Position numbers and translations under genes: made by a program. A stretch of 64,000 nt of DNA from Moniliella sp. 'wahieum' (taxonomy: Eukaryota), in NCBI GenBank assembly GCA_003971905.1, contig RSEE01000089.1, forward strand, positions 62,001-126,000. Direction: 5' to 3'. Below, piece by piece: positions 6,240-58,939 of the stretch. Positions within the stretch are counted from its first letter, which is position 1. Each line of letters opens with the position of its first letter. The notes beneath the pieces are model-generated. The model ran no database searches, was not told the origin of the DNA, and saw only the letters and a program-made list of their open reading frames with translations.

Positions 6240-7665
6240 ATGAACGCCACACCGGCGCTTGCGCCGGCGTGTGACGCACGAGTCGGCACCCCTCCCCACC
6301 GGCAGCCGCACCGCCGCCATTGGCTCCCTTACCGCCTCCTTCCTCGAGCGCCCAACTGCCAAGCAGCGCCTGCTCACCCGCCTCCTCCACAGCACCGACA
6401 ACCGCTTCCAGCCCTTCTCAGCACCTGACCCGCGCCGAATGCGATGCCACCGTCGCGCAGTAGGCGGCGCGAAGATCCTCTGGTCGCCCTGCGCCAACAT
6501 TCACTTTGTGCCCGACCCCATGCCACAGACCGACCCGTCGTTGGGACACTGCTCTTACCTCTCTACCTGCCACCGGAGGAAAACCTGTCGCTACCTCCAC
6601 TTTCGCATTGAGCGGCCCCCAGATCCTTCGGCGTCGGTTGCTCCTGTGTTTCAATGGGAGGCTCCCTACCCACCTGATTCCTTCCGTTCTCAGTACTCGA
6701 GCGTTCCGCCCGCGTGAAGCGCTGACCCAGTCCGGGCTCGATCGGTGGCTGCTCCCCTGCCCCACGCCTGCGCACACAGAAACCGATACCATCTCGATTG
6801 ATGTGCCCGAAGAACTGGAGGCGCTGACACGGGCCACCCCGCCCGCTCAATGGATCAATTGCGATGTGCGGGACTTTGAACTGGGCCGCGTGCTGGGCGA
6901 GGGACTGTGGGACGTTGTGATGCTCGACCCGCCGTGGGACATCCACATGAGTTTGCCGTATGGCGTCCTATCTGATGCCCAGCTGCTCGACCTACAGCTA
7001 GGCCAGTTACAAAAACCCGGGGGGTTGCTCTTCATTTGGGTTACAGGCCGGGCGATGGACATTGCACGGGATTGCCTGGCTGGTTGGGGGTATGCCCGGA
7101 TCGACGAGATTGTCTGGATCAAGACAGGCCACACTCAGCGCCTGGTTCGCACCGGACGCACGGGGCATTGGATCAACCATTCCAAGGAACACTGTTTGGT
7201 CGCCATCAAGCTGGGGGAGGATAGCAAACCCCCAGAAGACCCAGCCGACGAGGCGGACAACAGCCTGAATGCAACACCCAATTCGGGCCGGCCGGAGCTT
7301 GTGCCGGATGTGGTTCAGCTGGGCAGAGCCACGTCCACTCTGCCTGCCGTGCCGGGGGACGGCCACGACCGGCACTGCCGCCGGGCACGCTGCCGGGGGA
7401 AGTGGTGCCGTCGTGGGCGCTGCGTGGACTGAGTGCGGATGCGCTGGTGTCCGAGGTGAGAGATACGTCGCGCAAGCCCGACGAGCTGTACGGGATGATT
7501 GAGCGGCTGGCGCCGGGCGGGCGCAAGCTGGAGCTGTTTGGCCGGCGGCACAATCTGCGCCCGGGGTGGCTGACGCTGGGCAACCAGATCCGCTCGACGC
7601 ACGTGCTCGACCCGGACTTGGCGCGGCGGCTGCGGCGTGCGCAGATGGAGGAGGGGGGGGTGTAG
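6240..7665 (+). CDS. IME4: mRNA m6A methyltransferase catalytic subunit (MT-A70, METTL3/Ime4)
   Basis: CCCH finger [32 protein letters not shown]; catalytic [63 protein letters not shown]. Frameshifts near 6700 and 7400. Confidence 0.93.
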
Positions 7666-14446: not shown

Positions 14447-17400
14447 CCCCCGCTGACCGGAGGGCCCAGTCATGTGGACTGGATCCATCTCCTCGACGCG
14501 GAGTTGAGCAAGATGGCTTGTCAGGGCGGGACGGCCGAGAGGCTTGGTGAGGACGTCCGCTGGGTTCCTTTCGCCGGGGATGTGTACAAGTATGGCCTCG
14601 CCCGAGTCCACGTGTTGCCGTACATTGTGGTACCGGATCTTCAGCTCTCGGAGCTTGCCGGTGCTGCCAAATTTGTGGGCGAGATCGACGACAGACTTAT
14701 TGTCGCAATACCAATGAATGGGTGTACCCTCGCCGATGGCCCCAAGCTCGATCATGATGTTCTTGACATAGTTGGCGTCAACCAGTCCATCATATCCTGC
14801 CGTATATTCGGCGGCGGGTACTGGTAACGCTCTTCGGCTGAAGAATGGATCGCCACGACACCGGCACACCGTACACCATCAGTAGGCATCCAGATGTGGA
14901 GCGTGCCTGGATGGGATCCCGCCAAGTCGGAATCTGTATACAGCGCAATGGCCGGTGCATCTGATGTTGGGGTCAACCTCAGGCCCTTTCCTCGAGTATG
15001 GTACAGGTAGCGAAGGAAGTCATCGACTGCTTGATGATGCTGCTGCGATGGGTCGGCAGCGGCTCTGCTGAGGGCGGCGTGATAGCGAAGAGGGAGTCAG
15101 GCCGGCCCATTCGTGCAGCCCACAGTCCCGATCCGATCTTCCCCTGATATGCCTTGCGCAAGGCTGGGAGGGATGGGGGTTCAGGGTCGGCACGGGCGGT
15201 ATCATCCGTACGGGATGTGGGAGAGTCCGGATCCACGGGGCTTTGATGTGGTGCTTTGCCACCACTTCCTCGATGAACTTTGGTTGGCTCAGGTACAGCT
15301 CCCCACCGATCCGATCGTATTGGCATCCCAGGTGGTAGTGAAGGGGACCGTTACCACGAACATCAATGTGTGTGTTTATCTCGGCCATAAACTCCTCGTA
15401 CTTTTGGTGTGACTTGCATGCGAGGAGCAGATCGTCGGTGTGGACCGCCAGGAGGATCTGCTCACCCGGTGGTGCAGCGCGCACGAACAAGCAGGGCTCG
15501 GTCAAGCTTTGCGTGAAGCCGAGCTTGTCACGCAGCAGGTTCCGGATGTATCGTGCCCAGTTTGCTCCGCTCTGATGTAGCCCGTATAGACTCTTCTTGA
15601 GACGCCACACGCGACCACCCGCTTCGGGGAAGTAGGGGGGTGGGCGGATGTAGACTGCTTCTTCGAGGGGGGCGTTCAGGTACGCTGCATTGACGTCCGC
15701 CGAGAAGAGGCCAAACTTATACTTCTCGGCCAGCACGACGAGGGTCAGGATGGCAGGTGTGCGCACCGATGGTGCGAACGTCTGGCCCCAAGTCTCGGCC
15801 GATTGTTGGTGTCCGCCCGCGACAAAGCGCGCGCGGTGGCGCAGGAACCGGCCCTCGGCGTCCGTCTTTGTGGTGATGCGCCATAGTCTATGAGGATTTG
15901 TGCACCCGGTGGTGGGTACGTAGCCTCGTAGGTGCCGTATCGCGCGAGTGTGGCCACCTCGTCGGCCATAGCCTGCTTGACCATGGCAAAGGAGGGGTGA
16001 GTCTCGAGACCCTTGAGCGTCTTGGGAGCGAGGGGTACGCCATCCTTGGTGAGCTGAACCGTGTCCGGGTGGATGGGTGCGCTGAGAGCAGTCATGGCGG
16101 CGTATTCGGGAGGTTGAACTGTGTCGGCAAACGGGGGGGCGGATGTGTCAGGTAGGGGGCGGGCGATGCCGATCTCTGGTGCGGCGCAGTGGGGCGTGGC
16201 GGCTGCAGCACGAGCATGGTAGGTCGTGTCGGTGGGGTCGTCAGCGATTGGGAGTGTGTGCAGGTCGAGGGAGGTGCGGGTGGTGCGTGGCTGGAGGGTG
16301 GTGGTGGTGCGGGCGGAGGGGGGGTGGTGGTGGAGCGGGTGTCTGGGTGTGGCGGCGGTTCGGGCATGGGTGCTGCGCGGCTGCGGAGTAGGGTTAGCGT
16401 TTTTTCACTGTCGATTTTAATTTGAGGTGATTTGGAGATGTCGGGTGGGAAGGGTGGGGTGGAGATGGGGGTAGATGGCGTTGCCCCATTTGTACGGTTT
16501 CGACCAGCGGTAGGTGAAGGTACCCAGGGATGGTTGGTATGTGGCGAAGAGCCATCCCTTTGATCCGCGCTGATGGTGGTATCCTACCAGCATACCTTCC
16601 TCTGCCGCGCGCTGAGCTTGTGCTCGGCGCGGCGTGACTCGGGCAGATGGAGGTATGCAACGCGGCCAAAGGGTTGCATCGGTAACGAGTATGCGTGGCC
16701 TTTGTATCGCTCAAATCGCGATTTGTTGTCTTCCCCGGATGTTTTGAGTGGCATTTGGTTTTGGGTGAAGCACGCAGCGTGGAGGCTGTGTTCCCACCAG
16801 TCCGACGTCGGAAGACCTGTACCCAAGAGCAACTGCCTTGCACGAGTCGTTATGGTTCGGATGGCACGCTCAGCCACACCGTTGCTAGCACTCTGCCCCG
16901 GGATTGTCCGTTCTGACGTGATGCCTTGCTCGTCCAGAAAAGGTTGCAGTGCGCTTGTCAATTCGGGGGCGTTGTCCGTGCGCAAAGTCCGCAGCAGTCT
17001 GTCCGGGCCGTAGCGTTGCTCCCGCAATATGAGGTTCCGCAGTTCCTTCGTTGCAGCGCCCTTTGTCGGGATCGCTGTGGTGAAGACGTACCGCGTGAAG
17101 TCATCAACGGCGACGAGGGCGTATCCGTGCCCCATGCCGGTTACCCGGGGGAGGTCTACTACGTCGACGTGGAGGACCTCGAAAGGTCTTTTGGATCGGA
17201 GGCGGTCCCGGCTCGGATGGGGCGATGCTGTCGCTAGTGCCACCGCGCATGTTGGGCAATCCCACTCTGAACGACAGAGGGAGATATGCTTGGCTGTGAC
17301 GCGGAGGCCTGCGGTTTCCGATCGTGTAAGCCAGGGGAGGAGGTCGATGGCTGCGTGGTTCCAGCGTTTGTGGGCTTTAGAGACGTGGTCCAGGGCCAGG

Positions 17401-17879
17401 GATGCTGCGAGGGAGTTTGGGGTTGAGGGTGGGTCGGCCGGTTTGATCGGTTTGGTCGCCATGGCCCGCAGGGGTGTGGGTGGCGTTCGCGGGTTGTGTA
17501 AGATCGTGAATTGATAGTCACTGCCGGTTACTTTTCGTAGGGTGGATCCTGGGTTACCAAGCCAGATACCCTTCTGGTGTGGGGCGAAGTATGATGCGAT
17601 TCCGGTGTTCGACAGGTGTGATACACTGACGAGATTTCGGCTGAAACGGGGCATGTATAGGCTGTTGGGGAGTTTTATCTCCATTTGGTGTCCTCCTAAG
17701 CATCGGATACGGATTGTGGCCGTGCCTCGTCCTTCCGCCTTTACATGTGTCCCGTTAGCAACCTCTATCTCGTCGTCGCAAGGGGTCATGGATGTGAAGA
17801 CGGATTTGTCTTTCCAAATGGATGGGAATGCCCCACTGTCATATAATGCCCGGATGATTCGCATTTCGCCCCCGAGTTC
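14441..17879 (-). CDS. pol: Copia pol (protease, integrase, RT, RNase H), frameshifted in this assembly
   Basis: PR LYDSGA; IN HKRWNH..CPTC, LHVD, VDDFTRY, RTDNAPE, NGVAER; RT DVNAAYLN, LKKSLYGLHQS, HTDD; RH YTDSD, YCDNKS, NPADVLTKPL. Confidence 0.93.
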
Positions 17880-17916
17880 CTAGTAGTCAGCTGTGCCCGC
17901 ATCAACGTCAATCACT

Positions 17917-19125
17917 TCAGACTCGGGAGAGCTCGCTCTCTGAGCGACGTGAGCGTTGGCTCGGCCTGGGTTGCGGAGGGACAACAGGTTTATTAGACGT
18001 CGCGCTGCGCCAGGGTTGGTTGGTGCGGTCTTGCCCCTTGGTCTTTGTGTCCGCGAGGTTGTCGTCGCCGGCTTTGCCCCCGCTGGAGTTTTTTCCCCCG
18101 CTGGTGGGTCGTCCCCCGCTGTCGGGTCGAGTCCAAGGCGTTCCTCCGTTGACCGGCTTGCCTCCGTTTCTCTTCCTTTCTCCACCGGGATACGTGGCGG
18201 CTGGTATGTCCATCACGGCCTGCCGTAACTTGTCTAGACTCGAGCGCTCTTCACGCTGGCGAATGCTCATGTCGCGTAAGCCGAGTAGGATCCCAGTGCG
18301 TTCCTGCTCTTCCGTAAGTGGGATGCCCGCTCGCGTCAGGCTTGCACTGATCTCTTCCATGTAGTCGAGGTAGTCTCGACCCGATCGGTTTCCTTGGTCG
18401 GCCGAAAAGTAGCGAATGAGTAGAGGCCCTCTGTTTGCGGTAGGCGTATATCCATACCGCTGACGCAGCATGTTCAGCGTGTCCTGGGTGCATGATATTT
18501 CGTGGTGGGTGCGGATCGTCCGGAAGAGGGTTGACGGCATGGCTTCCCTAAGAAGGTTGTGCAAGCGTCTGTCGAGGTCCTCGGTGAAGTAGCGGGAGCT
18601 GCGACCATTCTGGACGACGTCGCTTGCGTGGGGGTGGGCATCTGTTATCGCGAAGAGAAATTCGTCTTCCCAAGCGCTGTAGGCGGACGGGTCTTTGTTC
18701 AGATCAGGCCACTTGATATTCTTGGTGGGAGACTCGCGTAGTGATCTGTAAAGGTCGTACTCGGGTCGCGAGGCTGCGCCTGTAGGTGCCCCCAAAGTTG
18801 CGTTGGGTTGAGTTTCCATTTGGTGGATGTTTTGCACCACAAAATTCGTAGCCCGTCGAACCCAGTTTGTCGTGATAGACGTAGGTTCGTCCTTCCATCC
18901 AAGCCACTCGGCTCTGTCGTGTATAGCTCTGTTGATCTTCTCTTTAACGACATCGATGTCGTTCGTCTTCTTGAACCACAGGTGCGCTTCGGCGCAAAGC
19001 ATCATGAGTTCCTCGTTGTCGGTGCCAATCGGTGGCGGATCGCGACCGGTTGGTGTCCAGTAATCGCGCTTGTTCACCATTGTGGTGTCGCTGACCGAGA
19101 GATCGGTGTTAGCGTTGGCGCCCAT
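17917..19125 (-). CDS. gag: Copia gag
   Basis: Uninterrupted ORF just inside the 5' LTR (ATG 19125, MGANANT). YSAWEDEF, LNMLRQRYG and GILLGLR resemble a Copia capsid. No CCHC knuckle. Confidence 0.8.
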   Translation of the reverse strand: MGANANTDLSVSDTTMVNKRDYWTPTGRDPPPIGTDNEELMMLCAEAHLWFKKTNDIDVVKEKINRAIHDRAEWLGWKDEPTSITTNWVRRATNFVVQNIHQMETQPNATLGAPTGAASRPEYDLYRSLRESPTKNIKWPDLNKDPSAYSAWEDEFLFAITDAHPHASDVVQNGRSSRYFTEDLDRRLHNLLREAMPSTLFRTIRTHHEISCTQDTLNMLRQRYGYTPTANRGPLLIRYFSADQGNRSGRDYLDYMEEISASLTRAGIPLTEEQERTGILLGLRDMSIRQREERSSLDKLRQAVMDIPAATYPGGERKRNGGKPVNGGTPWTRPDSGGRPTSGGKNSSGGKAGDDNLADTKTKGQDRTNQPWRSATSNKPVVPPQPRPSQRSRRSESELSRV

Positions 19126-19179
19126 GGTTGTGGGTGTAGTTTTGGCCAGCTCAGGGATGAGCAGATAAGGATGTAACTC

Positions 19180-19339
19180 TGTCGGCCTCGCTACTACCAC
19201 AGAATGTGAGCACTGAACGTCGTATTGGACTAAGAAGCTTCTGCGACTGACTCGTCCAGAAGACTGGTGCGAGCTCGGAAGGAATGAAAGCTGACTCACG
19301 TGACTCAGGGTCCGCGCGGTCCTAGGACGGATGTCAACA
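19180..19339 (-). repeat. 5' LTR (160 bp)
   Basis: Exact copy of 14287-14446. Confidence 0.97.
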
Positions 19340-20152
19340 GCAGTTACTGGGTACTAGTACTAGTTACGAGTTCCATACGGTTGTGCGTTTAAGCGCGCAG
19401 ACACTGGGGTGCTGCGGCAGGGTTTCATGCATAAACCGCACCCCTCGGATCCCAAGCGGATCATCTCCATCATCCATTACTGATGCGACGCATCGATGAC
19501 CCTGACATGGTCCAACTTGGACGCCGCGCCCCCCAAGGAAGCGAAACTGAGTTGAATCAACGCATAGCTCAAGCTTCAAGCTTCAAGCGCGCCGATACTC
19601 GGTACCCCCCCGCCCCAACAACAAAGCCGCCTCCCTGGATGCGTTTGAGGTTCTCCACACCGTCAGTGTAGTGTACTGGGTACGCCTGTGGCTTTGTTAC
19701 GTCCTGTAGCGGTGGCCGACGAGTGTGAAGCACATGAGCCCATCCTATCACACGGCCTCTGTTGTCCCCGCCGTGGGTCTTGCCGCCCAAATAGGCCGAG
19801 TGTGGCCGAGGTCCCACGGGCGGCTATTAATAATTGCCCAGCACGGCGCCAGTGTGGCCTGCTGCTTCCCAGCTTCACGCGCACGCGTCACCCGTCACGC
19901 TTCACAGATCCTCTCGCCCAACTGGCTTGCCACCCGCCTTGCGCAAACTCGACGATCACGCATCACCCATGGCGCATCCCCATCAGCGCTGGCTTGCACC
20001 GATCGCAGTGGACAACGTGGCTGGCTTCTCATTTCCCGCTTCCTGGCGCCCGCACTGGGACTTAAGTGTGGAAGCATTCCGATAGGCAGGTTTCTGCCGC
20101 TCTCTTCCCACCACCTCAGCGCCAGGCCTCATCGACCTCCTCCCCTCCCACC

Positions 20153-29470: not shown

Positions 29471-30129
29471 TTAGCGGGGCTGATAGAGCAAGTGGAACGC
29501 ACTGCCACCCAATCCCACGCCAAGTGCGATGCCCACCACACATTGGGCCAGCGTATGCCGTTTTTGTCTTACCCTTGCCCCGACCATAGCGAGTGGCAGA
29601 AGCAGGAGCAGCGCTTGGCCTACCCGAATTAGGTACACCATTCCTCCCACACGCATCGCCTCTGCCAATGCACCTTCCTGCACGCGCAGCGCACGGTCGA
29701 ACCAGCACAGCCCATAGCTCGTTGCGAACCCTGTGACGCTAGGTCGGGAACGAGGGGAAGGGGCAAAGGGGCAAAGGGGGGAAATGGTTACCAGGTGCAA
29801 CACAAGACGACGATGAAGATGACCATGAAGTTGAAGATAGAGATGACGAAGGGGGAGGAGGGCGGGGGGGAGGGAGGAGGGAGGAGACGCAGAGACGTAC
29901 CAGCAATGCGTACTGGGCATGCCATGGGGGACTTGGCCTTGGGTTGAGCTCGTTTCCATCCCAATGCGCCGTATTGCGACATGGTCTGCTCGGGGGGACG
30001 AGGCTGTTTGATGATGTGTTTCAGGCCGCGCGCCACGTACGCACTCGCCAGGGATAAGCACAACCCCAGCACAAGAAGTGGTGCTTCCTGTTGCAGTGCA
30101 GTCCACAGCACAGGCCACGGTCCCGCCAT
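29471..30129 (-). CDS. PAP2-family phosphatase (dolichyl-diphosphatase-like)
   Basis: C1 KHIIKQPRP, C2 GMPSTH, C3 ARVRQKRHTLAQ. Intron 29739-29900. One frameshift. Confidence 0.8.
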
Positions 30130-30374
30130 GACACTGGAGTTCAAGCGCAAGCGCAACGTCGGCGTCGTCGGGCGTAGGAATGCGGTGGCGGGAAACAGGA
30201 GACCCGAGTCCAGATCTTTTTGGCTTGAAGATTGGATATTGGAGAGCCGGCGCAAAATCCGACAGAAATTCAATCGCCCCGCTTTGAGCGATCGACGATC
30301 CAAACCAGATCGCAGCTTCCTGTTTCCAGTCGTTAGCTCCACCTTCTGCTCAGGCTCTGTTCCAGCTCCTGCTC

Positions 30375-31690
30375 ATGCCCCCGACCTCTTTTCCTGCGGC
30401 TCAACGCCGGCGGGCAGCTGGGGCTGGGACACAAGGAGGATGTACGCATGCTCCACCCTGTAGTGGCTGAGGGCGGCGCCTTCCCGCCCCGCGACCATGT
30501 CCTGCTTCACCTCGCTGCTGGAGCGAACCATGCGGCATGTCTCCTCCGCAATCCGCAGGGAAAGCACAAGTGTACCTCACTGGTGATCGGGCAGGCCGCT
30601 CTGCCCACCCTTTTGTTCCCCAATCCGACGCTCAATCGTTCCCCCTCTGTCTGCGCACATGGACCAGTTGGCACAAGCAGGTGGGGGGCAGGGTGCTGCG
30701 AGTCGATCCACCTGGCTTGTGCGTGGGATACCACCTTCTTTGCTCTCCGTCAGGAGCACGGGGACGTTTTCTGCTCTGTCCACGCCGGATGAGGTGGGAA
30801 GGGGTCTGGTGGGCCCCCAGTCGGTCCAGGAGGGCGCTTACCTCGTGCCGTTGGAGACAGGACTCGATCCCTCGGACCAAGCCAGGCCACTGCAGATCCA
30901 CACCTCTGCGCCGGACCACGACATGCTTCGCCCATATCTCGTGTTCCAACCGAGGACGGGCGCGGACGCACTCACTATTTGCTAGGATGGGGCGCAGGCC
31001 AAACACGGACAACTGGGCCCGTTCCTTCCCCTTCCCCGGCTGCCCCGCTGGACGGGGACGGATCACCCATGTGGCACCGCGCCTTGGCGCGCTGGGGTGC
31101 CATGCACGACCAACACGTTTCCCTGCGCGCAGGACAGGCACATACGCTCATCTTGCTTCCGGAGGGTGCGGGACAGTCTCGCTTTCTCGCTCTTGGTCAC
31201 GACGGGTAGGTCAACGTAACCTTGCGCTGGTGTGCAGGCGTCTGTGGCGGAAGTGATGCGTGTTGGAAAACGTCCGCGGCGCGCTCGTTCGCAGTGCCGA
31301 GGGGGACACACTGCATCTGTTTGGCAATGGGGCTCATGGGCAATTAGGTTCTCGCGCCGCGGCCAAGCTTACGCCCAAGGCCAAGTGGTGCGCTGTGCTC
31401 AAGCGGATTTGGCCCCTGGGACACAGTGGGACAAGTGCGATGCGCGGAAGCGAGCATGTCCTGCTGCTTGTGTCTTTCGGTGGGAAAGGACCTTAGCCCG
31501 CACATCCTCTGTTGGGGGTGGAACGAGCATGTAACTTGGGATTGGGCGACGAGGATCCGACGGAGGAAGAAGCACCACCTCAGCTCGGCACCAGGCCCGA
31601 TCGGTGGGAACCACCGAGCTTCCGCTACCCCCCCAGGCTTGGTCCCGCTCAACTGGGCCGGGTGCGGGACGACGTACGTGCTTGTTTCGG
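30375..31690 (+). CDS. RCC1-repeat beta-propeller (Ats1/Kti13-like), N-terminal part of an apparent fusion
   Basis: GS[N]AGGQLGLGH, LAAGANHA, LACAWDTTF, FGNGAHGQLG, GSEHVL, CWGWNEH-NLGLGD and WAGCGTTY. Heavily frameshifted. Confidence 0.75.
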
Positions 31691-32780
31691 AAGCTGAGCC
31701 GCCGCCCGCAGCGCGCAGGCAGTTCGCCTTCCTGCCCAAGGTGGAGCTACATGCCCATTTGCACGGCAGCTGCGTCGTCGGACAGTGGCACGCTGGGCTA
31801 CCGCCGAAGGCCAAGATGCTTCCCACGCAAAATCAACATTGGCGATCCACGTTCGCTGAGCGCCATGTTTGGCGTGTGTTTGATGTGCTGCACCATGCGG
31901 TTGGAGGTGCACGGCCGAGGCGATACGGACGGGGCGGGAGGGGAAAGTGATGGAAGATATGGCAAGGGACGGAGTGGTCTATGCCGAGGTGAGGAACGCC
32001 ACGGATCTGCCGGGGTGTAAGGACGAGTGGGATTACCTTGCCTCGGTGGCACGAGGGGTTCAGGACTTTGTCCGTATGCAAGATCGTTGCCGGTGAGGTT
32101 ACCGGCACGGCAGATGACCCTCGTCTTGTTAAGTATCAACCGGACCTGGCCCCGAGGCGGCTGAGCGGGGGGTTGATCTGCTGTTGGAGGCAACCCGACT
32201 GCCTTCCACTCACCCTTGTGCTGGCCTTCTGGTAGGCTTGGACGTCAGTGGCGATCCTACCAAAGGGTCGTTCGAAGCATCCTTCTGCCCTCGAGCGTGC
32301 CCGACGAGCCGGTGTCAAGATCACGCTCCACATGGCCGAGCAGGCAGGCGAATTGGGAAAGAGGGATACGGATGCCATGTGGCCTTTGGTCCGATCGAGT
32401 CGGACACGCCATCTTCCCTCCTCGGAGCAGTGGACCCTGCTCTGTGCCAAGCAGATCTTTACTGAAGTTTGTCTGACCTCCAACGTGGTCACCAGTCCGT
32501 TCGTTCCTACCACACCATCATGTTGCTGCGTTTTCGGGTCTGGAATCGTGGGCTGGGGAGGGGGGGAAGGTATTGCCACCCCCCTTTGCGTTGGCTACCG
32601 ATGATACCACCGTGTTTGGCCAACCTAACGGATGAGTATGTCCATTGGATCAAGCCTTCCCCCCACTCACGTTGGCGAGGGCAAGGCAGATGAACAAAGA
32701 GGCATGCAGGCTTCCTTTTTGCCGGCTGGAGAGCAGAACGACATTGCTCACGTGTTGGAGACGGCTCTGTCAATCTAAGT
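31691..32780 (+). CDS. Adenosine deaminase-like protein (ADAL/MAPDA type), C-terminal part of an apparent fusion; 3' end approximate
   Basis: LPKVELHAHLHGS, DGVVYAEVR, VGLDVSGDP, GVKITLHMAE, RVGHA, EVCLTSNV and ATDDTTVF appear in order across frameshifts. Confidence 0.8.
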
Positions 32781-33068
32781 TATAACACATATGTATGGTT
32801 TGTGCAGATCATTGTCCCCCCTTTTGCGAAAGCAGAGCCTGGTTCGGGCGGAGGTAATAGACGTACACATTCTGATAACAAGTGCGCCATCCTTCGACGG
32901 ATCATCGAGATCCTAGCGGGGGACAAAGTGAGCACGATGGTAGGACCCATGATGCATGATGATGATGCCCATGCTGCCGTCCTGCGTAGGTGTATCCACG
33001 TTTGCAACCTTTTCATTTTCAGCCTGTTTTTTCGTCCACTTGGTTTTTTTTTCGTGGCCATCTATCTA

Positions 33069-35644
33069 ATGGTGGCCACCACCATCACACCGCTCATGAC
33101 CGACACGGGCACCAAGAGCGTAAAGCGAAAGGCGCCCGCTGCCAAGGCCGAGTCAAACAAATTGAATCACAAGGGAAGCGTCCCCGCACGCTTCCTTCCC
33201 AAGCCGCTCTTCCCATCTGGGCTGGCCGAGACGCCATCCTGTCCGCTGTGGCGCACAATGCGACAGTCGTGCTGGGCGAGAACTGGGTCGGGCAAGACAA
33301 ACCCAAGTGCCTCAGTTCCTCTTCCGCGCACGCAAGGAACTCAAACTGACCAGCAAAGCTTCGCCTGTCATCGCTATTACTCAACCAAGGCGTGTCGCGG
33401 CCGTCACACTCGCAAAGCGTGTAGAGCCGAGGAAATGCGCTGCCCGACCCAACCACCTTGAATCGCAAGGGCGCGCCAGCTCCTAAGGACGAGAGGAAAG
33501 GATGGCTCGGAGAAACCAAAGTCTTTACCGATTGTAGGATACGTCCGGTCCGGTTTGACGATCGTTCTTCTTCCGAAACAAGGATCGTTTCATGACCGAT
33601 GGCTTTTGTTGCGGGAGATGCTAGGCTCCTCGCTTACCCGCTCGCGGGCGGCAGCACCGTCCTTCGCCATCTTCTGACAAACCAGAGAGAAAAAGAAAGG
33701 GGAGGAGGGGAGGAGGCGGCGGTGGCTCTGGCTCCATCCGACTTGCGGCGGTATGGAGTGATCATTATTGATGAGGCGCACGAGCGGACGTTAGATACGG
33801 ATCTTTTGCTCGGTCTGGCCAAGATGATCCAGGCAGAGCGGTACCGTCGCGCCCGAGTGTGGGATGAGGATCCTAGTTCCCGCTCGGGCCCGCGACCACA
33901 AGAATTGAGGATCATCGTCATGTCTGCCACGTTGGACGCTGGCAAGTTTGTTGATTTTTTTGCCTCGCCGTTACAGGTTCCGTCACCCCTGCATCCTCTA
34001 GGGGTCCGTTTGACCTCTTCACCTACCCACGTACCTGTTCTTTACGTCCGTGGGCGGCAACACGGTGTGACACGCTTCCATACGCTGGAACCATGTGCAG
34101 ACTGGCGGGATGCGGCGTTGCGTGCGATCTGTCAAATCCACACCTCCTACCCGGCTGGGGACATTCTTGTCTTTATGACGGGACAAGAAGACATTGAGGC
34201 CATGGCATCCCAACTGCGTACCTATGCCCCTGGTCTGGCCAAGCAGGTTCAAGGAACCAACGATGAATCGGGCCAGGACGCAGAGCCCAAACCGCCTCTC
34301 TTGGAGCCTGTTCCGCTTTATGCTGCGCTCGGCCCCAAAGGCGCTGCTATTGCTTTTCGTCCTGCCGCTCCCGGCACCCGAAAGGTAATCCTTGCAACCA
34401 ACATTGCCGAAGCTTCCGTCACCCTGCCTGGCATCCGATATGTTGTCGACAGTGGACTGGCCAAGGTGGCGCGCTGGACCAGTACCGGAAGCGGCGGGGC
34501 GACGGAAATCTTAGCAGTCGAGCCGATCTCGCGCTCAAGTGCTACCCAGCGTGCGGGCCGTGCAGGTCGTGAAGCGGCAGGCACCTGTTTCCACCTCTAC
34601 ACATCCGACTCGGCTGAAACGCTGCCTCCCACCACCGAGCCCGCCTCAGCTCACGCCGACTTGAGCGGCTCCCTTTTGCGCCTTGCGGCTGTTGGCGTCG
34701 CTCCGGACCAGTTCCCTTGGCTCGATCCCCCCAGTACCGAGCGGTTGGCAGAAACTGTGATGCGCTTAGTGCAATTGGGTGCGTTGAAGTTGCCTGCGGC
34801 CGAAACGGCAGGCCAGGGCGCTCCAACACTCACGCCTCTTGGCGCCAGGATGGCACTTCTTCCACTTGAACCAGGACTGGCACGGGTCATCTTGGCTGCC
34901 GAGGCGTACGGGCCCAAGGTCACGCGCGAGGCAAGGGATCTGGTGGCCGTGCTGAGTGGGGAGCGAGGTATCTTTCTTGACCCGCGCCAGCGCCAGCGGG
35001 ACAAGGCCAAACGGGTGGCGCGTGCGCGTGGGTTAGGTGCCGAAGTGGCTTTGCCCGAGTCGGAAGACGAAGAAGAATTGGTCCATCCGTTTGTTCATCC
35101 TAGTGGGGATCACGCCACGGTGCTCGAGGCATTTTATGCGTACTTGCGCATGCGTGCCCAGGGCCTACCGCCAGCGGAGGTCCGTGCCTGGTGCACCAAC
35201 CACGGAGTTGACCATCGTGCTGCGGCTGAGGCAGCGCGTCTGCGTGTGCAGCTCAAGAAGGTGTGCAAGCAACAGCGAATCGAGTGCGACGATGGCCATG
35301 TTGATGAGATTGAACCGCTCGAACCACCCGATTCGGAAGAGGAAAGTGACCTGCCTGCCCTCACCGTCCTCCGTCCCGGCGGAGCAGGACGACAAGAGGC
35401 GTACGTGGATCTGCGACGTGCGCTCGTTGCGGCGCGGATGGGGCAGTATGCTGTTCGTGCCCCCGAAGGCGGCGGGTACCGCCGCGGAGACGAGCTGGTC
35501 AAAATCCACCCATCCTCGGTGCTGCACTCGAAAAAACCTGGGGTGATTGTGTTTGAAGAAGCAGTTCTCACAACCCAACTGTTTGTCCGCACCGTCAGTG
35601 CCATCGAGCCTGCTTGGCTGGCCGAGGCGTTTGCAGCACAATGA
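33069..35644 (+). CDS. DEAH-box RNA helicase, Dhr2/DHX33-like
   Basis: GSGKT, TQPRRVAA, DEAHER, MSAT, ATNIAEASVT and QRAGRAGR motifs plus HA2/OB tail. 5' part frameshifted. Confidence 0.9.
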
Positions 35645-55373: not shown

Positions 55374-57345
55374 TTATTGCTGTCGGATCGGATCTGCAAA
55401 CACGTAATGGAACACCGTGCCGCGTCCCCGTCGGTTGCGACCGTGCTGGCGCGGTACAGTGTTGGTGTTCGCCTTGTGCTTGTTGAAGGCCAAAGGGTAG
55501 CTTTGTGCCTGTAAGGCCTTGGGCAAGGCGGAGATATAGGGACCAAGGGCGCGCGAAGGCGAACTACTGCTGTGGCTTGCGTTCCGATTGGCCGGCAGGG
55601 CTTTCGCCTGACTTGCGACGTGCGGCAAGGGGATAGATCGGGGCGCAAACCCTTTCTGTTGCAGTTGGAACGGGTGGCCCTCGGTGTTGAACACGACCTG
55701 GTTCAAGTCGGCTGTACTGGCGTCGGAAAACGTAAGGTAGAGGTACTTGTACAGTTCGGCGTAGGCAAAACTTTGTTCTTCGTTCACCTGGCCCGCGGCG
55801 GGAGAGCGAACGTCGTTGATCCCGACCAGACCGTCCTTGAGGCCCTTTAGGCTTGCACGCGCTTTCCAGCGCTTCAAATGCCGCCCAGGCAATCTCTTGC
55901 CATTTAGGATCCAGCGTCGCGCGCCAAGCATAAAACACCGATTCGAGTACCTCCGGACGCAGCACATAGTCCGCCATCGAAATTGAGAACCCCCACTGGT
56001 CAAATTCCGTTTGGTTGAGCGGAGTGGAAGGGACGTGGTAGGAGCCATTGGCAAAGCGGTAAGTGAACACTTCTGGTCCCAGCCCCGTTGGCGTCCGGGC
56101 ATAGGTTTGCGCACACGATTCCGTCACCTCCAATCCGAATGCAAGCAGGGACTGGCTGCCTAGGATCTTGCCGCCCAAAATCAAGTTGCCACCCACGAAG
56201 CATTCGAGGTGCGAGCCTAGCGAGATCAATCCGCCTTGGCTCGGGTCATAGTCAGCGAGGAAAAGGAGGTCGGGGTGGTGCTGCGGTACAGTAGCCAGCA
56301 CGCCCACTGTACTTTTCACCGTATCGATCCAAGTATCTATGTAGGTTCCCGACGAGTTGCCCCAACAGTACGCCGTCTTGAGCAAGTACTCAAAAAACGA
56401 GTCGGACCCCCCGCCCCAGGTCATGTAACTGTCAGTGGCGGTATTACTGGCAGGATCGATGCCTTGGCCAAAGAAGCCTTTGGGTCGGGGGTTCATGGTT
56501 TGCCGACTGGTGATGATGGCCTGCATGGCCTTTTTCGCATACGCTTCGTACGTCCCATTGCGCGTGTGTTGGCTCAACTTGGTCCATTCCAACACGATCG
56601 TACCGGCCTGCGCAATCCCTTGGCCATCCGATTTGTCCACCGTCACAGTCGTGTTCCAGTTCAACAATGAGTTCCACGGAATGTCCTGTCCTTCGACCCT
56701 AGATACCATGCATGCGTGAGTGCCAAAGAAATGCCTTGGTAGTGCTTAGTGCTTTTAGTCGGGTTCGACCGCTACACGCTGACATAAAATGAGAGCATCC
56801 ACCAAGCCAAGAACAAGGGATGTGCCACGTACCAACCACCCCAACTTATCTGCCACGCGGGCCGCCTGCTCAATCAGACCAAATCGCTTGGCCCCGTCCA
56901 ACTCGTAGGCACTCACCAAGCCAGCAACATACCGAATGTTGGTCTCGAACAAGGAGATCTTGGTCTGACGTGTCGTACCAAAGTCAATGTTCAGAGCCAA
57001 GTTGATCAATTTGTTCGCCTGCTCCGTCTGGCCCATAACGAGCGCAGTGGAAATCGCATCGACGGCTGAGGCGCCCCAATCGCCATACAGGTCGGCAGAA
57101 AGGCTACTGCCATTCGACGTTAGTGCGTCCAGCTCGTCCCCTGGCCAGGCGTAGTGGAGGTAGGCATCCAGGTTGGCAGAGAAGGCTTGTTGGATTCGTT
57201 GTGCACGCGAGGCGGCCAGAGGCGTAGATGTGTAGGAGCTGTCAAACGCTCCGTTGGCCACTACCGTCGGCAGGTGGAGCAGGGCAAAGGCACCGCCCCA
57301 AATGAGTGTACGCATGGGGGCCTTCCCAAAGCGGATGAGGACCAT
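55374..57345 (-). CDS. Class I alpha-1,2-mannosidase (GH47), secreted type
   Basis: WGASAVDAISTA, SLFETNIRY, GGGSDSFFEYLLK, HLECF, GLGPE, LRPEVLES, SFAYAELYKYLYL and FNTEGHP. Signal-like N-terminus. Intron 56699-56832. Confidence 0.95.
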
Positions 57346-58939
57346 GTAAGGATCGTGGGTAGGGGGGGGAAGGTGTTGGTGAGAGAAAGAACGTGGAGAG
57401 GAGGGCGGTGAGGACAGTGCGGATGCAGGTGGTGTAGGAGAGGGACTCTGCAAGGGCAAAGGGGAGGAAGTGATGACAAACAACGCGACGCTCTGTTGTG
57501 CACTGTATACGTAGCAGAGCCTTGTTCAGTGGCCGCTCTGTTGGGTGGGATTGGCAAGCAAAGCAACGTGGCCCCAACTCCAGGCCGCGCACTTTGCCGA
57601 GGAGAGCCACAGCCACGCCGGGAAGACGCTGTGGGTCGCTCTCTTCGGCTATGGCTTCTACCACGGCCATTCGGAGGCTCTGACCAAAATGCAGTGGGGG
57701 ATGGATGCTCTAGAAAAGACGATAAGTGTGGCCGCGCCACATCTTTATCGGCCTGATCAACCTGATTGAATATTGATCATCGATCATCTCGATCTCACGT
57801 ACGTCGGTTTCCTACGCAACGCAGCCAGGCCGTCGATCACGTGGGCCCCATGCGGGCACTAGGGTGTGTCGATCAGGTCGATCAGGTCGTTGGGATCGAT
57901 GATTGATTGACCGCCCCACGTCCTCCTCGAGTCGTTAGCGTGCTGATCTTCCCACCTGTTGCCTCCCTGCTTGTCCCTACCCTGATGCTTGCCCCACTGC
58001 ACAGCAGAAGCGCACAAGGGGGAAGGTGGGGTAAAGGCGCAGATAGTGCTTCGTCGTGCGCTCAGCGGCTCAGCGCTCATGCACTCATGCCCTCTCGCGC
58101 ATCATGTTCATACGCCGCGCCGCCTCTTTGGCCTAGCTGCGCGGCGCACAGCCCAGCCCCCCTTGCAACCTATCTTCTCAGCAAGCAAGCTGCGTGCCTC
58201 GCCAGCGGCTAACGGCCAACGTCCAAAACGGACGTCTTCCAACGGCCAGCATGCATACGCACCCCCTCCACCCGTCCACCCCCCCCTGGCAGGTGCTGCT
58301 GGTCGCTTGCTGGCCGGCCACGACACTTTCGCGCTGGCTGTGGTGTGCGCTTCCTCCTTTCCTGGCTCGACTGCATCGCCCTGTCTGGCTCGGCCAGAGG
58401 CGGCAAGCAAATGGTGCCCAGTACTTGCCTTGTCGCAAGCCACGCGTGATGTCTGTGTCACATATGCGTCACGTCACGTGCCACGTCAGATCTCAGATGG
58501 CCTGTCGAATGCGACCCTAGTCACAGTGACTAGTGGCCAGTGCCTAGTGCCTTGCCGATTCGGTAGGTCCAATTATACGAGGAAAGGGTCCAAGAGCGTA
58601 ACAAGGGAAGCGTTGAACTTGAACGTTGAACGTTGATGGACGTTGGGCGTTGGAGGTTGAAGAGCTTGAAGGCTGGGTTATAGAGGATCAAGACGAAGAA
58701 GGAAGTGCGTCAATCAACAGGGAATGGCAAGTGATGGGGAGGGGGATGAGAACGTTCTTCGTATATCTGATGAACCGAGACGTTCGTATATAATGGGAAG
58801 AGAGTGGGGGATTATGAGAATTGGAACAATAATACATCAAACGCGGACGGATGTGGCATGTGCCCCCAGCCTGATTCATCTCTTCTCTCATCATGCATCA
58901 CGAAGACATCTCGTGTGTGGGAGCCAGATGTGGGGGGGG

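What the first reader, a model, noticed from the sequence alone, without database searches (positions are those of the whole stretch)
30375..32780. RCC1 (Ats1/Kti13-like) propeller fused in frame to an ADAL/MAPDA-type deaminase
Seen: 31651-31770 reads NWAGCGTTYVLVSEAEPPPAARRQFAFLPKVELHAHLHGS with no in-frame stop, and there is no ATG in any frame between the RCC1 C-terminal motif and the deaminase N-terminal motif. The deaminase therefore has no start or promoter space of its own. Established: Kti13/Ats1 supports Elongator wobble-uridine modification and diphthamide synthesis, and ADAL/MAPDA deaminates N6-methyl-AMP released by m6A RNA turnover. Inference: a fusion linking tRNA modification to modified-nucleotide salvage. 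I do not know this architecture from characterised proteins. Kti13 orthology is judged from motifs only, and the region is indel-rich.
Basis: partly seen in the sequence, partly recalled or inferred. Interest (0 to 1): 0.72.

Follow-up and report, generated by a model that had tools for sequence, protein, structure and literature searches.

The report
Propeller–deaminase fusion gene in a fungus
One fungal gene joins an RCC1-type propeller, of the kind that assists tRNA and elongation-factor modification, to an enzyme that detoxifies methylated AMP; the fusion is real and shared by a few related fungi, but nobody has studied it and this copy is riddled with probable sequencing errors.

Summary
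Window 31651-31770 reads straight from the last propeller strand into the deaminase HxH motif, with no stop and no usable ATG.

The fusion is real. The 10 best-scoring of the 150 listed representative proteins are 710-1059 aa, and all 10 carry both RCC1 repeats and A_deaminase. One is a deposited Tilletiaria anomala protein named only 'Metallo-dependent hydrolase'.

The C-terminal half is ADAL/MAPDA-type rather than ADA-type: PDB E-values are 1e-41 against 4e-14, and TM-score to MAPDA is 0.88. Every catalytic codon is present in the window.

The propeller's nearest stand-alone relatives are basidiomycete proteins labelled ATS1 or SERGEF. Kti13 is its best structural propeller match, but sequence scores favour UVR8. 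Kti13 orthology is therefore likely, not proven.

The window copy has 37-42 single-base frame breaks and no nonsense substitution. The breaks also hit the neighbouring helicase gene and stop abruptly inside it, so they are probably assembly errors.

The functional link between the two halves is untested. I found no paper on this architecture.

The parts
30375..32780 (+). Whole fusion gene: ATG at 30375-30377, TAA at 32778-32780, about 800 codons, no intron needed. It is broken by 37-42 single-base frame changes.
   Evidence: Frameshift-aware alignment to P0001: 487 of 761 aligned codons identical, 37 frame changes. Alignment to P0002: 467 of 771 identical, 42 frame changes, no stop on the path.
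30375..31686 (+). N-terminal RCC1-like propeller half (Ats1/Kti13/SERGEF-like), ending in ...NWAGCGTTYVLV.
   Evidence: Pfam RCC1, RCC1_2 and WD40_RLD on the homologues. The window fragment alone gives only a weak RCC1 hit, E 0.016. 240 of 427 aligned residues are identical to P0001. The model of P0001 has 27 strands in residues 4-469.
31687..31731 (+). 15-codon linker SEAEPPPAARRQFAF, with no Met and no stop.
   Evidence: Linkers of 8 of 10 fused homologues also lack Met.
31732..32777 (+). C-terminal ADAL/MAPDA-type deaminase half (amidohydrolase TIM barrel).
   Evidence: Pfam A_deaminase positions 1-328 of 330 on P0001, E 1e-31. PDB 6ijm E 9.5e-42 and 8qch E 7.6e-38. 242 of 352 aligned residues are identical to P0001.
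31750..31764 (+). HAHLH motif. It holds the two His that align with AtMAPDA His13 and His15, and a His in place of Asn17.
   Evidence: Residue roles are taken from passages of PMC6451127.
32329..32340 (+). HMAE: His and Glu aligned with AtMAPDA His217 and Glu220.
   Evidence: Both columns are invariant in the 10 fused proteins.
32405..32407 (+). His of the RVGHA motif (P0001 His712).
   Evidence: The column is at least 90% conserved in A1.
32600..32617 (+). TDDTTVF: Asp-Asp aligned with AtMAPDA Asp295 and Asp296, and Phe aligned with Phe300.
29900..33600 (.). Indel-rich stretch of the assembly (limits approximate). It covers the fusion gene, the 5' part of the downstream DEAH helicase gene and probably part of the upstream PAP2-like gene.
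   Evidence: The helicase Walker A region is read in three frames at about 33270-33310. The stretch after it matches DEAH helicases from a different frame than the clean 682-codon ORF 33596-35644. The PAP2 gene is in two frames; its motifs are recalled, not tested.

Best explanation
Window 30375-32780 (+) is a single gene for a two-domain protein of about 800 aa.

The N-terminal ~435 residues form a seven-bladed RCC1-like propeller. Its closest stand-alone relatives are the basidiomycete proteins annotated as ATS1/Kti13 or SERGEF. After a 15-residue linker comes a complete ADAL/MAPDA-type zinc deaminase.

Shown: the architecture, its conservation in about ten diverged relatives, and the presence of all catalytic residues and most substrate-binding residues.

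Inferred: the deaminase half hydrolytically deaminates N6-methyl-AMP, and probably related N6-substituted AMPs released by RNA turnover, to IMP.

Inferred with less weight: the propeller acts as a docking module. If it keeps the Kti13 role it binds the electron carrier Kti11/Dph3, and so places the deaminase beside the Elongator and diphthamide machinery.

The 37-42 frame breaks in this copy are most likely consensus errors of a poorly polished stretch of the assembly, not decay of the gene.
For: Junction. It is read in one frame with no stop and no ATG, and there is no frame change between about 31637 and 31768.

Fusion in relatives.
- The junction ORF hits 2 proteins of 1282 candidates, and both carry PF00962 plus PF00415.
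- The 10 best-scoring of the 150 listed representatives (3231 had E <= 0.001) are 710-1059 aa. Pfam finds both domains in 10 of 10.
- 6 of 16 near-length hits carry both families, among them a Tilletiaria anomala protein.
- 8 of 10 linkers lack Met.

Deaminase type.
- AtMAPDA scores E 9.5e-42 and human ADAL 7.6e-38, against 4e-14 for the best ADA.
- Foldseek gives TMt 0.88 to both 6iv5 and 8qch.
- Of 12 AtMAPDA contact residues that I mapped from PMC6451127, 9 are identical and 3 are substituted: N17H, V57M, K100R.

Propeller type.
- The best 120 listed stand-alone hits (413 had E <= 1e-5) are proteins of 378-457 aa. The named ones are nearly all from Basidiomycota. 13 are labelled 'protein ATS1' and 2 SERGEF.
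- An Atlas cluster auto-named SERGEF scores 0.95.
- Kti13 (4d4q_B) is the first non-deaminase Foldseek hit, E 7e-18, TMt 0.76.

Frame breaks as errors.
- 30 deletion-type and 7 insertion-type changes with P0001, and no stop on the P0002-guided path.
- 64% identity to P0001 is retained and every catalytic codon is present.
- The breaks continue into the helicase gene. That gene's first part is spread over three frames, while its last 2049 bases are one clean ORF.
Against: - PDB sequence searches rank UVR8 (2e-10 single sequence, 1e-49 with a profile) far above Ats1 (5e-6, 7e-27). The ATS1 and SERGEF labels are automatic annotations.
- The Foldseek margin of Kti13 over RCC1 and RPGR is small.
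- The propeller is about 470 aa, against 319-336 residues for the Kti13 chains listed.
- Nothing shows that the two halves cooperate.
- Three AtMAPDA contact residues differ in this clade, one of them the phosphate-binding Asn17.
- Without reads I cannot prove that the frame breaks are errors. As deposited, the sequence encodes no intact protein. Pfam sees only two sub-threshold fragments among the 15 ORF pieces I tested.
- P0001 and P0002 come from unnamed assemblies and may be close kin of the window's organism.
Confidence: 0.72

Rival explanations
1. The locus is a true pseudogene. A once-functional fusion gene has decayed by many small indels in this organism.
For: 37-42 frame changes lie in 2.4 kb. 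Pfam recognises only two sub-threshold fragments among 15 ORF pieces.
Against: - No nonsense substitution lies on the homology-guided path.
- 64% identity to P0001 is retained and all catalytic codons are kept.
- The same kind of break affects the 5' part of the neighbouring helicase gene, and the breaks stop abruptly inside it, followed by 2049 clean bases. Decay would not respect such a boundary.
- A frame change without room for an intron is also seen in a GH47 gene 23 kb away.
- By inference, neutral decay with this many indels should also have left many substitutions and some stop codons.
Confidence: 0.12
2. There are two separate adjacent genes. A sequencing error hides a stop and a start between propeller and deaminase, and the fused relatives are gene-model or ORF-calling artefacts.
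For: The region is error-prone. A TGA lies at 31695 in another frame. Close relatives with separate genes exist: stand-alone deaminases that start with Met 27-151 residues before the motif, and propeller-only proteins that end just after WAGCGT.
Against: - No ATG in any frame lies between 31529 and 31751.
- The linker is read in frame in both guided alignments.
- Ten proteins that diverge to 32-59% identity all have the fusion. P0001 and P0002 are listed from a source of unnamed assemblies; I inferred, but did not check, that they are continuous ORF translations.
- 8 of 10 linkers lack Met, so the deaminase could not start on its own.
Confidence: 0.03
3. The fusion is real, but the propeller is a generic RCC1-like docking or regulatory domain with no Kti13 function. 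The protein is then simply an ADAL enzyme with an added interaction module, unrelated to Elongator or diphthamide.
For: UVR8, HERC1 and RPGR score as well as or better than Ats1 in PDB sequence searches. The propeller is about 140 residues longer than the solved Kti13 chains. The ATS1 and SERGEF names are automatic.
Against: - The nearest stand-alone family is labelled ATS1 or SERGEF wherever a specific name is given.
- The profile aligns with Ats1 collinearly from residue 4, whereas the other propellers align out of register.
- Kti13 is the top structural propeller match.
Confidence: 0.3

Closest known systems
N6-methyl-AMP deaminase: Arabidopsis MAPDA (PDB 6IJM, 6IV5) and human ADAL (PDB 8QCH)
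   Same: Full-length match of the C-terminal half: E 1e-41 and 8e-38, 29-32% identity, TMt 0.88. The residues aligned with His13, His15, His217, Glu220, Asp295 and Asp296 are kept, as are Phe58, His65, Thr98 and Phe300.
   Different: The known enzymes are stand-alone proteins of about 350 aa. Here the deaminase has no start of its own and follows a 470-aa propeller. In the window/P0001/P0002 clade, Asn17 is His, Val57 is Met and Lys100 is Arg. Activity is untested.
Yeast Kti13/Ats1 (alias Dph8; PDB 4D4O, 4D4Q, 4X33) and its proposed human orthologue SERGEF
   Same: A seven-bladed RCC1-like propeller. It is the best structural propeller match. The nearest stand-alone relatives carry these names. 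PMC7591051 calls SERGEF the orthologue of Kti13 (passage).
   Different: Sequence similarity to Ats1 itself is weak, E 5e-6 over 42 residues. The propeller is longer, with low-confidence insertions. Binding to Kti11 is untested. The known proteins have no enzyme domain attached.
Tilletiaria anomala UBC 951 'Metallo-dependent hydrolase' (P0003, 829 aa) and the Zopfochytrium polystomum record DFJ73DRAFT_861086 (P0008, 767 aa)
   Same: The same two-domain architecture in deposited proteomes.
   Different: Only 33% (propeller) and 45% (deaminase) identical to the window's protein. They are uncharacterised and named without reference to the propeller.

Membership tests
ADAL/MAPDA (N6-methyl-AMP deaminase) within Pfam A_deaminase | Full-length match to the A_deaminase profile | tested here: met
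   P0001 residues 485-832 match profile positions 1-328 of 330, E 1e-31. All 10 fused proteins match. The window's own fragments reach only E 6.7e-4, because of the frame breaks.
ADAL/MAPDA (N6-methyl-AMP deaminase) within Pfam A_deaminase | Closer to MAPDA/ADAL than to adenosine deaminase | tested here: met
   6ijm E 9.5e-42 and 8qch 7.6e-38, against 4.1e-14 for the best ADA. Foldseek ranks 1-10 are all MAPDA or ADAL, TMt 0.85-0.88, against 0.76-0.80 for ADA.
ADAL/MAPDA (N6-methyl-AMP deaminase) within Pfam A_deaminase | Zinc and catalytic residues (HxH, H...E, H, DD) | tested here: met
   All codons are present in the window at 31750-31758, 32329-32340, 32405-32407 and 32600-32605. The columns are invariant or at least 90% conserved in A1.
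ADAL/MAPDA (N6-methyl-AMP deaminase) within Pfam A_deaminase | Phosphate- and N6-methyl-pocket residues named for AtMAPDA in PMC6451127 | tested here: inconclusive
   9 of the 12 mapped residues are identical. The differences are N17H, V57M and K100R. Asp160 was not mapped.
ADAL/MAPDA (N6-methyl-AMP deaminase) within Pfam A_deaminase | Deaminates N6-methyl-AMP but not AMP or adenosine | not testable with these tools
   This needs an enzyme assay.
Kti13/Ats1/SERGEF propellers | Seven-bladed RCC1-like propeller | tested here: met
   Pfam RCC1, RCC1_2 and WD40_RLD. The model has 27 strands in residues 4-469. Foldseek matches RCC1-type propellers.
Kti13/Ats1/SERGEF propellers | Nearest stand-alone relatives belong to the ATS1/SERGEF group | tested here: met
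   Of the 120 listed hits, 13 are labelled 'protein ATS1' and 2 SERGEF. The other named hits are generic (RCC1/BLIP-II, hypothetical). An Atlas cluster auto-named SERGEF scores 0.95. All these labels are automatic.
Kti13/Ats1/SERGEF propellers | Solved Kti13 is the best match among solved propellers | tested here: inconclusive
   By structure, yes: 4d4q_B is the first propeller hit, E 7e-18, TMt 0.76. By sequence, no: UVR8 scores 1e-49 against 7e-27 for Ats1 with the profile, and 2e-10 against 5e-6 with P0001.
Kti13/Ats1/SERGEF propellers | Forms a dimer with Kti11/Dph3 and supports Elongator and diphthamide modification | not testable with these tools
   No Kti11 sequence of a relevant species was at hand. 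The roles are taken from passages of PMC10468694.

The most novel reading that the evidence does not exclude
The fusion is a 'Rosetta stone' for a general partnership between Kti13/SERGEF and ADAL.

On this reading, the propeller docks the deaminase onto the Kti11-dependent radical-SAM machinery (Elongator Elp3, Dph1-Dph2). There the deaminase removes inhibitory adenine compounds. These could be N6-modified AMPs from tRNA turnover. They could also be the adenosine-type by-products of SAM cleavage; that such by-products exist and inhibit is recalled chemistry, not tested here.

In its favour, a second, independent ADAL fusion to an RlmN-like radical-SAM domain (P0074) points the same way. Against it, the retained phosphate-pocket residues favour nucleotide substrates.
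Probability: 0.1. Interest if true: 0.75.

Novelty: new variant of a known kind. Interest (0 to 1): 0.45.

Why it matters
Both halves belong to families whose biology is still incompletely understood. Kti13 has a dual role upstream of two radical-SAM modifiers, and how it acts is an open question (PMC10468694, passages). ADAL was shown only recently to clear m6A-, m6,6A- and i6A-derived AMPs (bioRxiv 10.1101/2024.05.23.595515, abstract).

A fusion that has stayed stable across about ten diverged lineages is a cheap, testable hint that the two act together. It also supplies natural constructs for testing this.

On the practical side, the case shows that a locus looking like a wrecked gene can be read through with homologues. 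It also shows that this assembly needs polishing around 29.9-33.6 kb.

Tried and rejected
- Pfam on 15 raw ORF pieces of the locus gave only two sub-threshold hits, and plain tblastn ran through the wrong frames. I therefore wrote a frameshift-aware aligner.
- The Atlas search with the whole of P0001 gave no usable hit.
Accessions and names of P0004-P0010 beyond those therefore stayed unseen.
- Complex prediction of the two halves of P0001 returned no verdict: score 0.00, controls not run, and my alignment was not used. It says nothing either way.
- The DNA search for ATG over the whole window was uninformative. A script replaced it.
- Rfam and tRNA scans of the window found nothing.
- A free 'quick' tree put the fused deaminase halves in two places. 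The AU test showed that a tree holding all 11 fused rows plus 5 stand-alone rows together is better by 71 log-likelihood units, p-AU 0.974. I therefore do not claim several origins, and a single origin is not shown either.
- I considered programmed recoding or insertional editing as a cause of the frame breaks and rejected it. The breaks stop in the middle of a neighbouring nuclear gene, and I know of no such system for nuclear fungal genes (recalled).
- Not checked: eukaryotic contig context of the relatives (no such collection was available).
Full report
**Observation.** Window 31651-31770 (+) translates to NWAGCGTTYVLVSEAEPPPAARRQFAFLPKVELHAHLHGS. On the + strand of 31500-31800 the only ATGs are at 31529 and at 31751. 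The first lies inside the last RCC1 repeat. The second lies inside the HAH codons and is out of frame. The coding frame has no stop there, and the only stop between the motifs is a TGA at 31695 in another frame. The gene runs from the ATG at 30375 to the TAA at 32778-32780. An open frame of 200 codons means little in DNA of about 62% G+C. What exceeds chance is homology across the junction: the ORF 31348-31950 matches an 834-aa protein at E 2e-22 over 92% of its length.

**Anatomy in the window.** Raw ORF pieces are barely recognisable. Of the 15 pieces I gave to Pfam, only two gave hits, RCC1 at E 0.016 and A_deaminase at E 6.7e-4, both under the curated cut-offs. A frameshift-aware alignment that I wrote places P0001 on 30375-32766 with 487 of 761 aligned codons identical. 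It needs 37 frame changes: 30 deletion-type and 7 insertion-type. Guided by the more distant P0002 it needs 42 changes and meets no stop on the path. 35 of the 37 P0001-derived changes have a P0002-derived one within 15 bases. The single stop on the P0001 path, at 31207, is avoided by frame changes in the P0002 path. No frame change lies between about 31637 and 31768, so the junction is read without any correction. No intron is needed.

**Are the frame breaks real?** I think not, for four reasons.
- There is no nonsense substitution, 64% identity to P0001 is retained, and every catalytic codon is present. By inference, decay with this many indels should also have produced many substitutions and some stops.
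- The breaks are not confined to this gene. In the downstream DEAH helicase gene the Walker A region is spread over three frames within about 45 bases: VVLGE, then TGSGKT, then TQVPQFL (the motif is recalled). The stretch after it matches DEAH helicases from a different frame than the rest of that gene.
- The breaks stop abruptly inside that helicase gene. From 33596 on, 2049 bases form one clean ORF that aligns with Prp43 from residue 143.
- A GH47 gene at 55.4-57.5 kb also changes frame at a point with no room for an intron.

The upstream PAP2-like gene also seems to change frame between its first two motifs, but that rests on recalled motifs and a sub-threshold Pfam hit. A poorly polished patch of roughly 29.9-33.6 kb explains all of this. 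Only reads can prove it.

**The fusion in relatives.** I searched 1.84 billion representatives with P0001. This gave 3231 proteins at E <= 0.001, and of the 150 listed the 10 best-scoring (P0001-P0010, 710-1059 aa) match both halves. Pfam finds RCC1-type repeats in the N-terminal part and A_deaminase in the C-terminal part in 10 of 10. They share 32-59% identity with P0001. In the 5.8-billion set, 6 of the 16 near-length hits carry both families. Two of these have public names: 'Metallo-dependent hydrolase [Tilletiaria anomala UBC 951]' (829 aa) and a hypothetical protein in a Zopfochytrium polystomum record (lineages). In all ten proteins the last propeller strand (WAGCGTT...) is followed by a linker and then by LPK(V/I)ELHAHL. 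The linker contains no Met in 8 of 10, so the deaminase cannot start by itself. Separate genes also exist among near relatives. There are stand-alone deaminases with ordinary N-termini, and propeller-only proteins that end just after WAGCGT.

**The deaminase half.** Against the PDB, Arabidopsis MAPDA (6ijm, 6iv5) scores E about 1e-41 and human ADAL (8qch) 7.6e-38. The best adenosine deaminase scores 4e-14. The AlphaFold model of P0001 was built with only 10 sequences and has mean pLDDT 76.3 and pTM 0.63. It superposes on MAPDA and on ADAL with TMt 0.88, and Foldseek ranks 1-10 are all MAPDA or ADAL. I mapped the contacts described for AtMAPDA in PMC6451127 (passages read) through the printed alignment. 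His15, Leu16, Phe58, His65, Thr98, Glu220, Asp295, Asp296 and Phe300 are identical. Asn17 is His, Val57 is Met and Lys100 is Arg in the window, P0001 and P0002. Asp160 was not mapped. The corresponding codons are all present in the window. The likely reaction is therefore N6-methyl-AMP to IMP. The ADAL preprint (abstract read) adds m6,6AMP and i6AMP as substrates, after phosphorylation by adenosine kinase.

**The propeller half.** The closest stand-alone proteins (413 at E <= 1e-5, 120 listed) are 378-457 aa. The named ones are almost all from Basidiomycota. Where a specific name is given it is 'protein ATS1' (13 of 120) or 'Secretion-regulating guanine nucleotide exchange factor' (2 of 120). 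The rest are generic or unnamed. The Atlas search of residues 1-470 gives basidiomycete RCC1 clusters at 0.95, one of them auto-named SERGEF. PMC7591051 calls SERGEF the orthologue of yeast Kti13 (passage). In the fold search the first non-deaminase hit is Kti13 (4d4q_B, E 7e-18, TMt 0.76), narrowly ahead of RCC1 and RPGR. Against this, sequence searches of the PDB put UVR8 far ahead of Ats1: 2e-10 against 5e-6 with P0001, and 1e-49 against 7e-27 with a profile of 27 stand-alone relatives. The Ats1 alignment is, however, the one that is collinear from residue 4. Kti11 binding, the defining property (PMC10468694, passages), could not be tested. I rate Kti13/SERGEF orthology at roughly two in three.

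**Trees.**
- Deaminase halves. The set had 67 rows: 11 fused, including the window read with X at each break, and 56 of the 66 deaminase-type representatives among P0011-P0080. Ten were dropped because my N-terminal motif pattern did not match them, and 4 propeller-only rows were excluded. The quick tree puts eight fused rows in one starred group with five stand-alone rows. The window/P0001/P0002 clade sits on a long branch nearby. An AU test does not reject one clade of all 11 fused plus those 5 rows. The held tree is in fact 71 log-likelihood units better, p-AU 0.974.
- Propeller halves. The set had 68 rows: 11 fused and 57 stand-alone, a subset chosen. The 52 rows from Agaricomycotina, Tremellomycetes, Dacrymycetes and Pucciniomycotina fall on one side (SH-aLRT 93). 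The fused rows fall on the other side, with five propeller-only rows among them.

Both trees are unrooted, quick trees. They are compatible with one old fusion in a Ustilaginomycotina-like lineage followed by a few splits, but they do not prove it.

**Mechanism and rivals.** My reading is one polypeptide with a working N6-mAMP deaminase whose N-terminal propeller serves as a docking module. If the propeller is a true Kti13, it would tie the enzyme to Kti11 and the radical-SAM modifiers. The architecture is shown. The enzymology and the docking role are inferred.

The rivals are these:
- A true pseudogene (0.12).
- Two genes joined by an error or by artefactual gene models (0.03).
- A real fusion whose propeller has nothing to do with Kti13 (0.3).

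The boldest reading not excluded is that the fusion reveals a general Kti13/SERGEF-ADAL partnership that clears inhibitory adenine compounds at radical-SAM enzymes. An independent ADAL fusion to an RlmN-like radical-SAM domain (P0074) points the same way, but the retained phosphate-pocket residues argue for nucleotide substrates.

**What is known.** Full-text searches for 'rcc1' + 'adenosine deaminase-like' + 'fusion' and for 'n6-methyl-amp deaminase' + 'rcc1' returned 0 papers. The search 'kti13' + 'adenosine deaminase' returned 5 papers. From the listing these are general tRNA-modification papers, and I did not open them. The architecture is thus present in public protein sets under uninformative names, and I found no description of it. 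I classify it as a new variant (domain architecture) of known kinds, of moderate interest.

**Limits.**
- No eukaryotic contig collection was available, so synteny, paralogue content and the origin of the Zopfochytrium record could not be checked.
- The complex prediction gave no verdict.
- The structure model rests on a shallow alignment.
- The organism of the window was not identified.

Noticed in passing
window 6464-7432 (+): An ORF with an MT-A70 domain (PF05063, E 6e-32), the m6A-methyltransferase family. It lies 23 kb from the N6-methyl-AMP deaminase fusion. The proximity may be coincidence.
   Followed up: no
window 15020-19353 (-): Ty1/copia-type retroelement ORFs: RVT_2 (E 2e-37), integrase core (rve) and Pol_BBD.
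   Followed up: no
window 55374-57525 (-): A GH47 mannosidase gene is spread over three ORFs. Profile position 396 is reached near 55848 in one frame and continues near 55838 in another, which leaves no room for an intron. Indels therefore also occur outside the 29.9-33.6 kb patch.
   Followed up: partly
window 33070-35644 (+): A DEAH-box RNA helicase gene (best PDB matches Prp43, DHX35, DHX8). Its first ~500 bases are frame-broken and its last 2049 bases are one clean ORF.
   Followed up: partly
window 29471-30372 (-): A PAP2-superfamily (dolichyldiphosphatase-like) gene diverging from the fusion gene, read in two frames. It has a likely GTACGT intron donor after ...GMPSTHCW. The motif reading is from recall.
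   Followed up: partly
proteins P0054, P0065, P0074, P0151, P0160 (not in the window): Other fusions of the two families: ADAL + P-loop kinase (PRK/AAA_33; KTI12 only 7e-4, under the cut-off), ADAL + RlmN-like radical SAM, ADAL + CYTH, and an ATS1-like propeller + class IV aminotransferase.
   Followed up: no
protein P0008 (Zopfochytrium polystomum record): Its deaminase half is 73% identical (218 of 298) to that of the basidiomycete Tilletiaria anomala, but the propeller half is only 33% identical. It sits inside the fused clade on short branches. This suggests contamination of that assembly, gene transfer or a poor gene model.
   Followed up: partly
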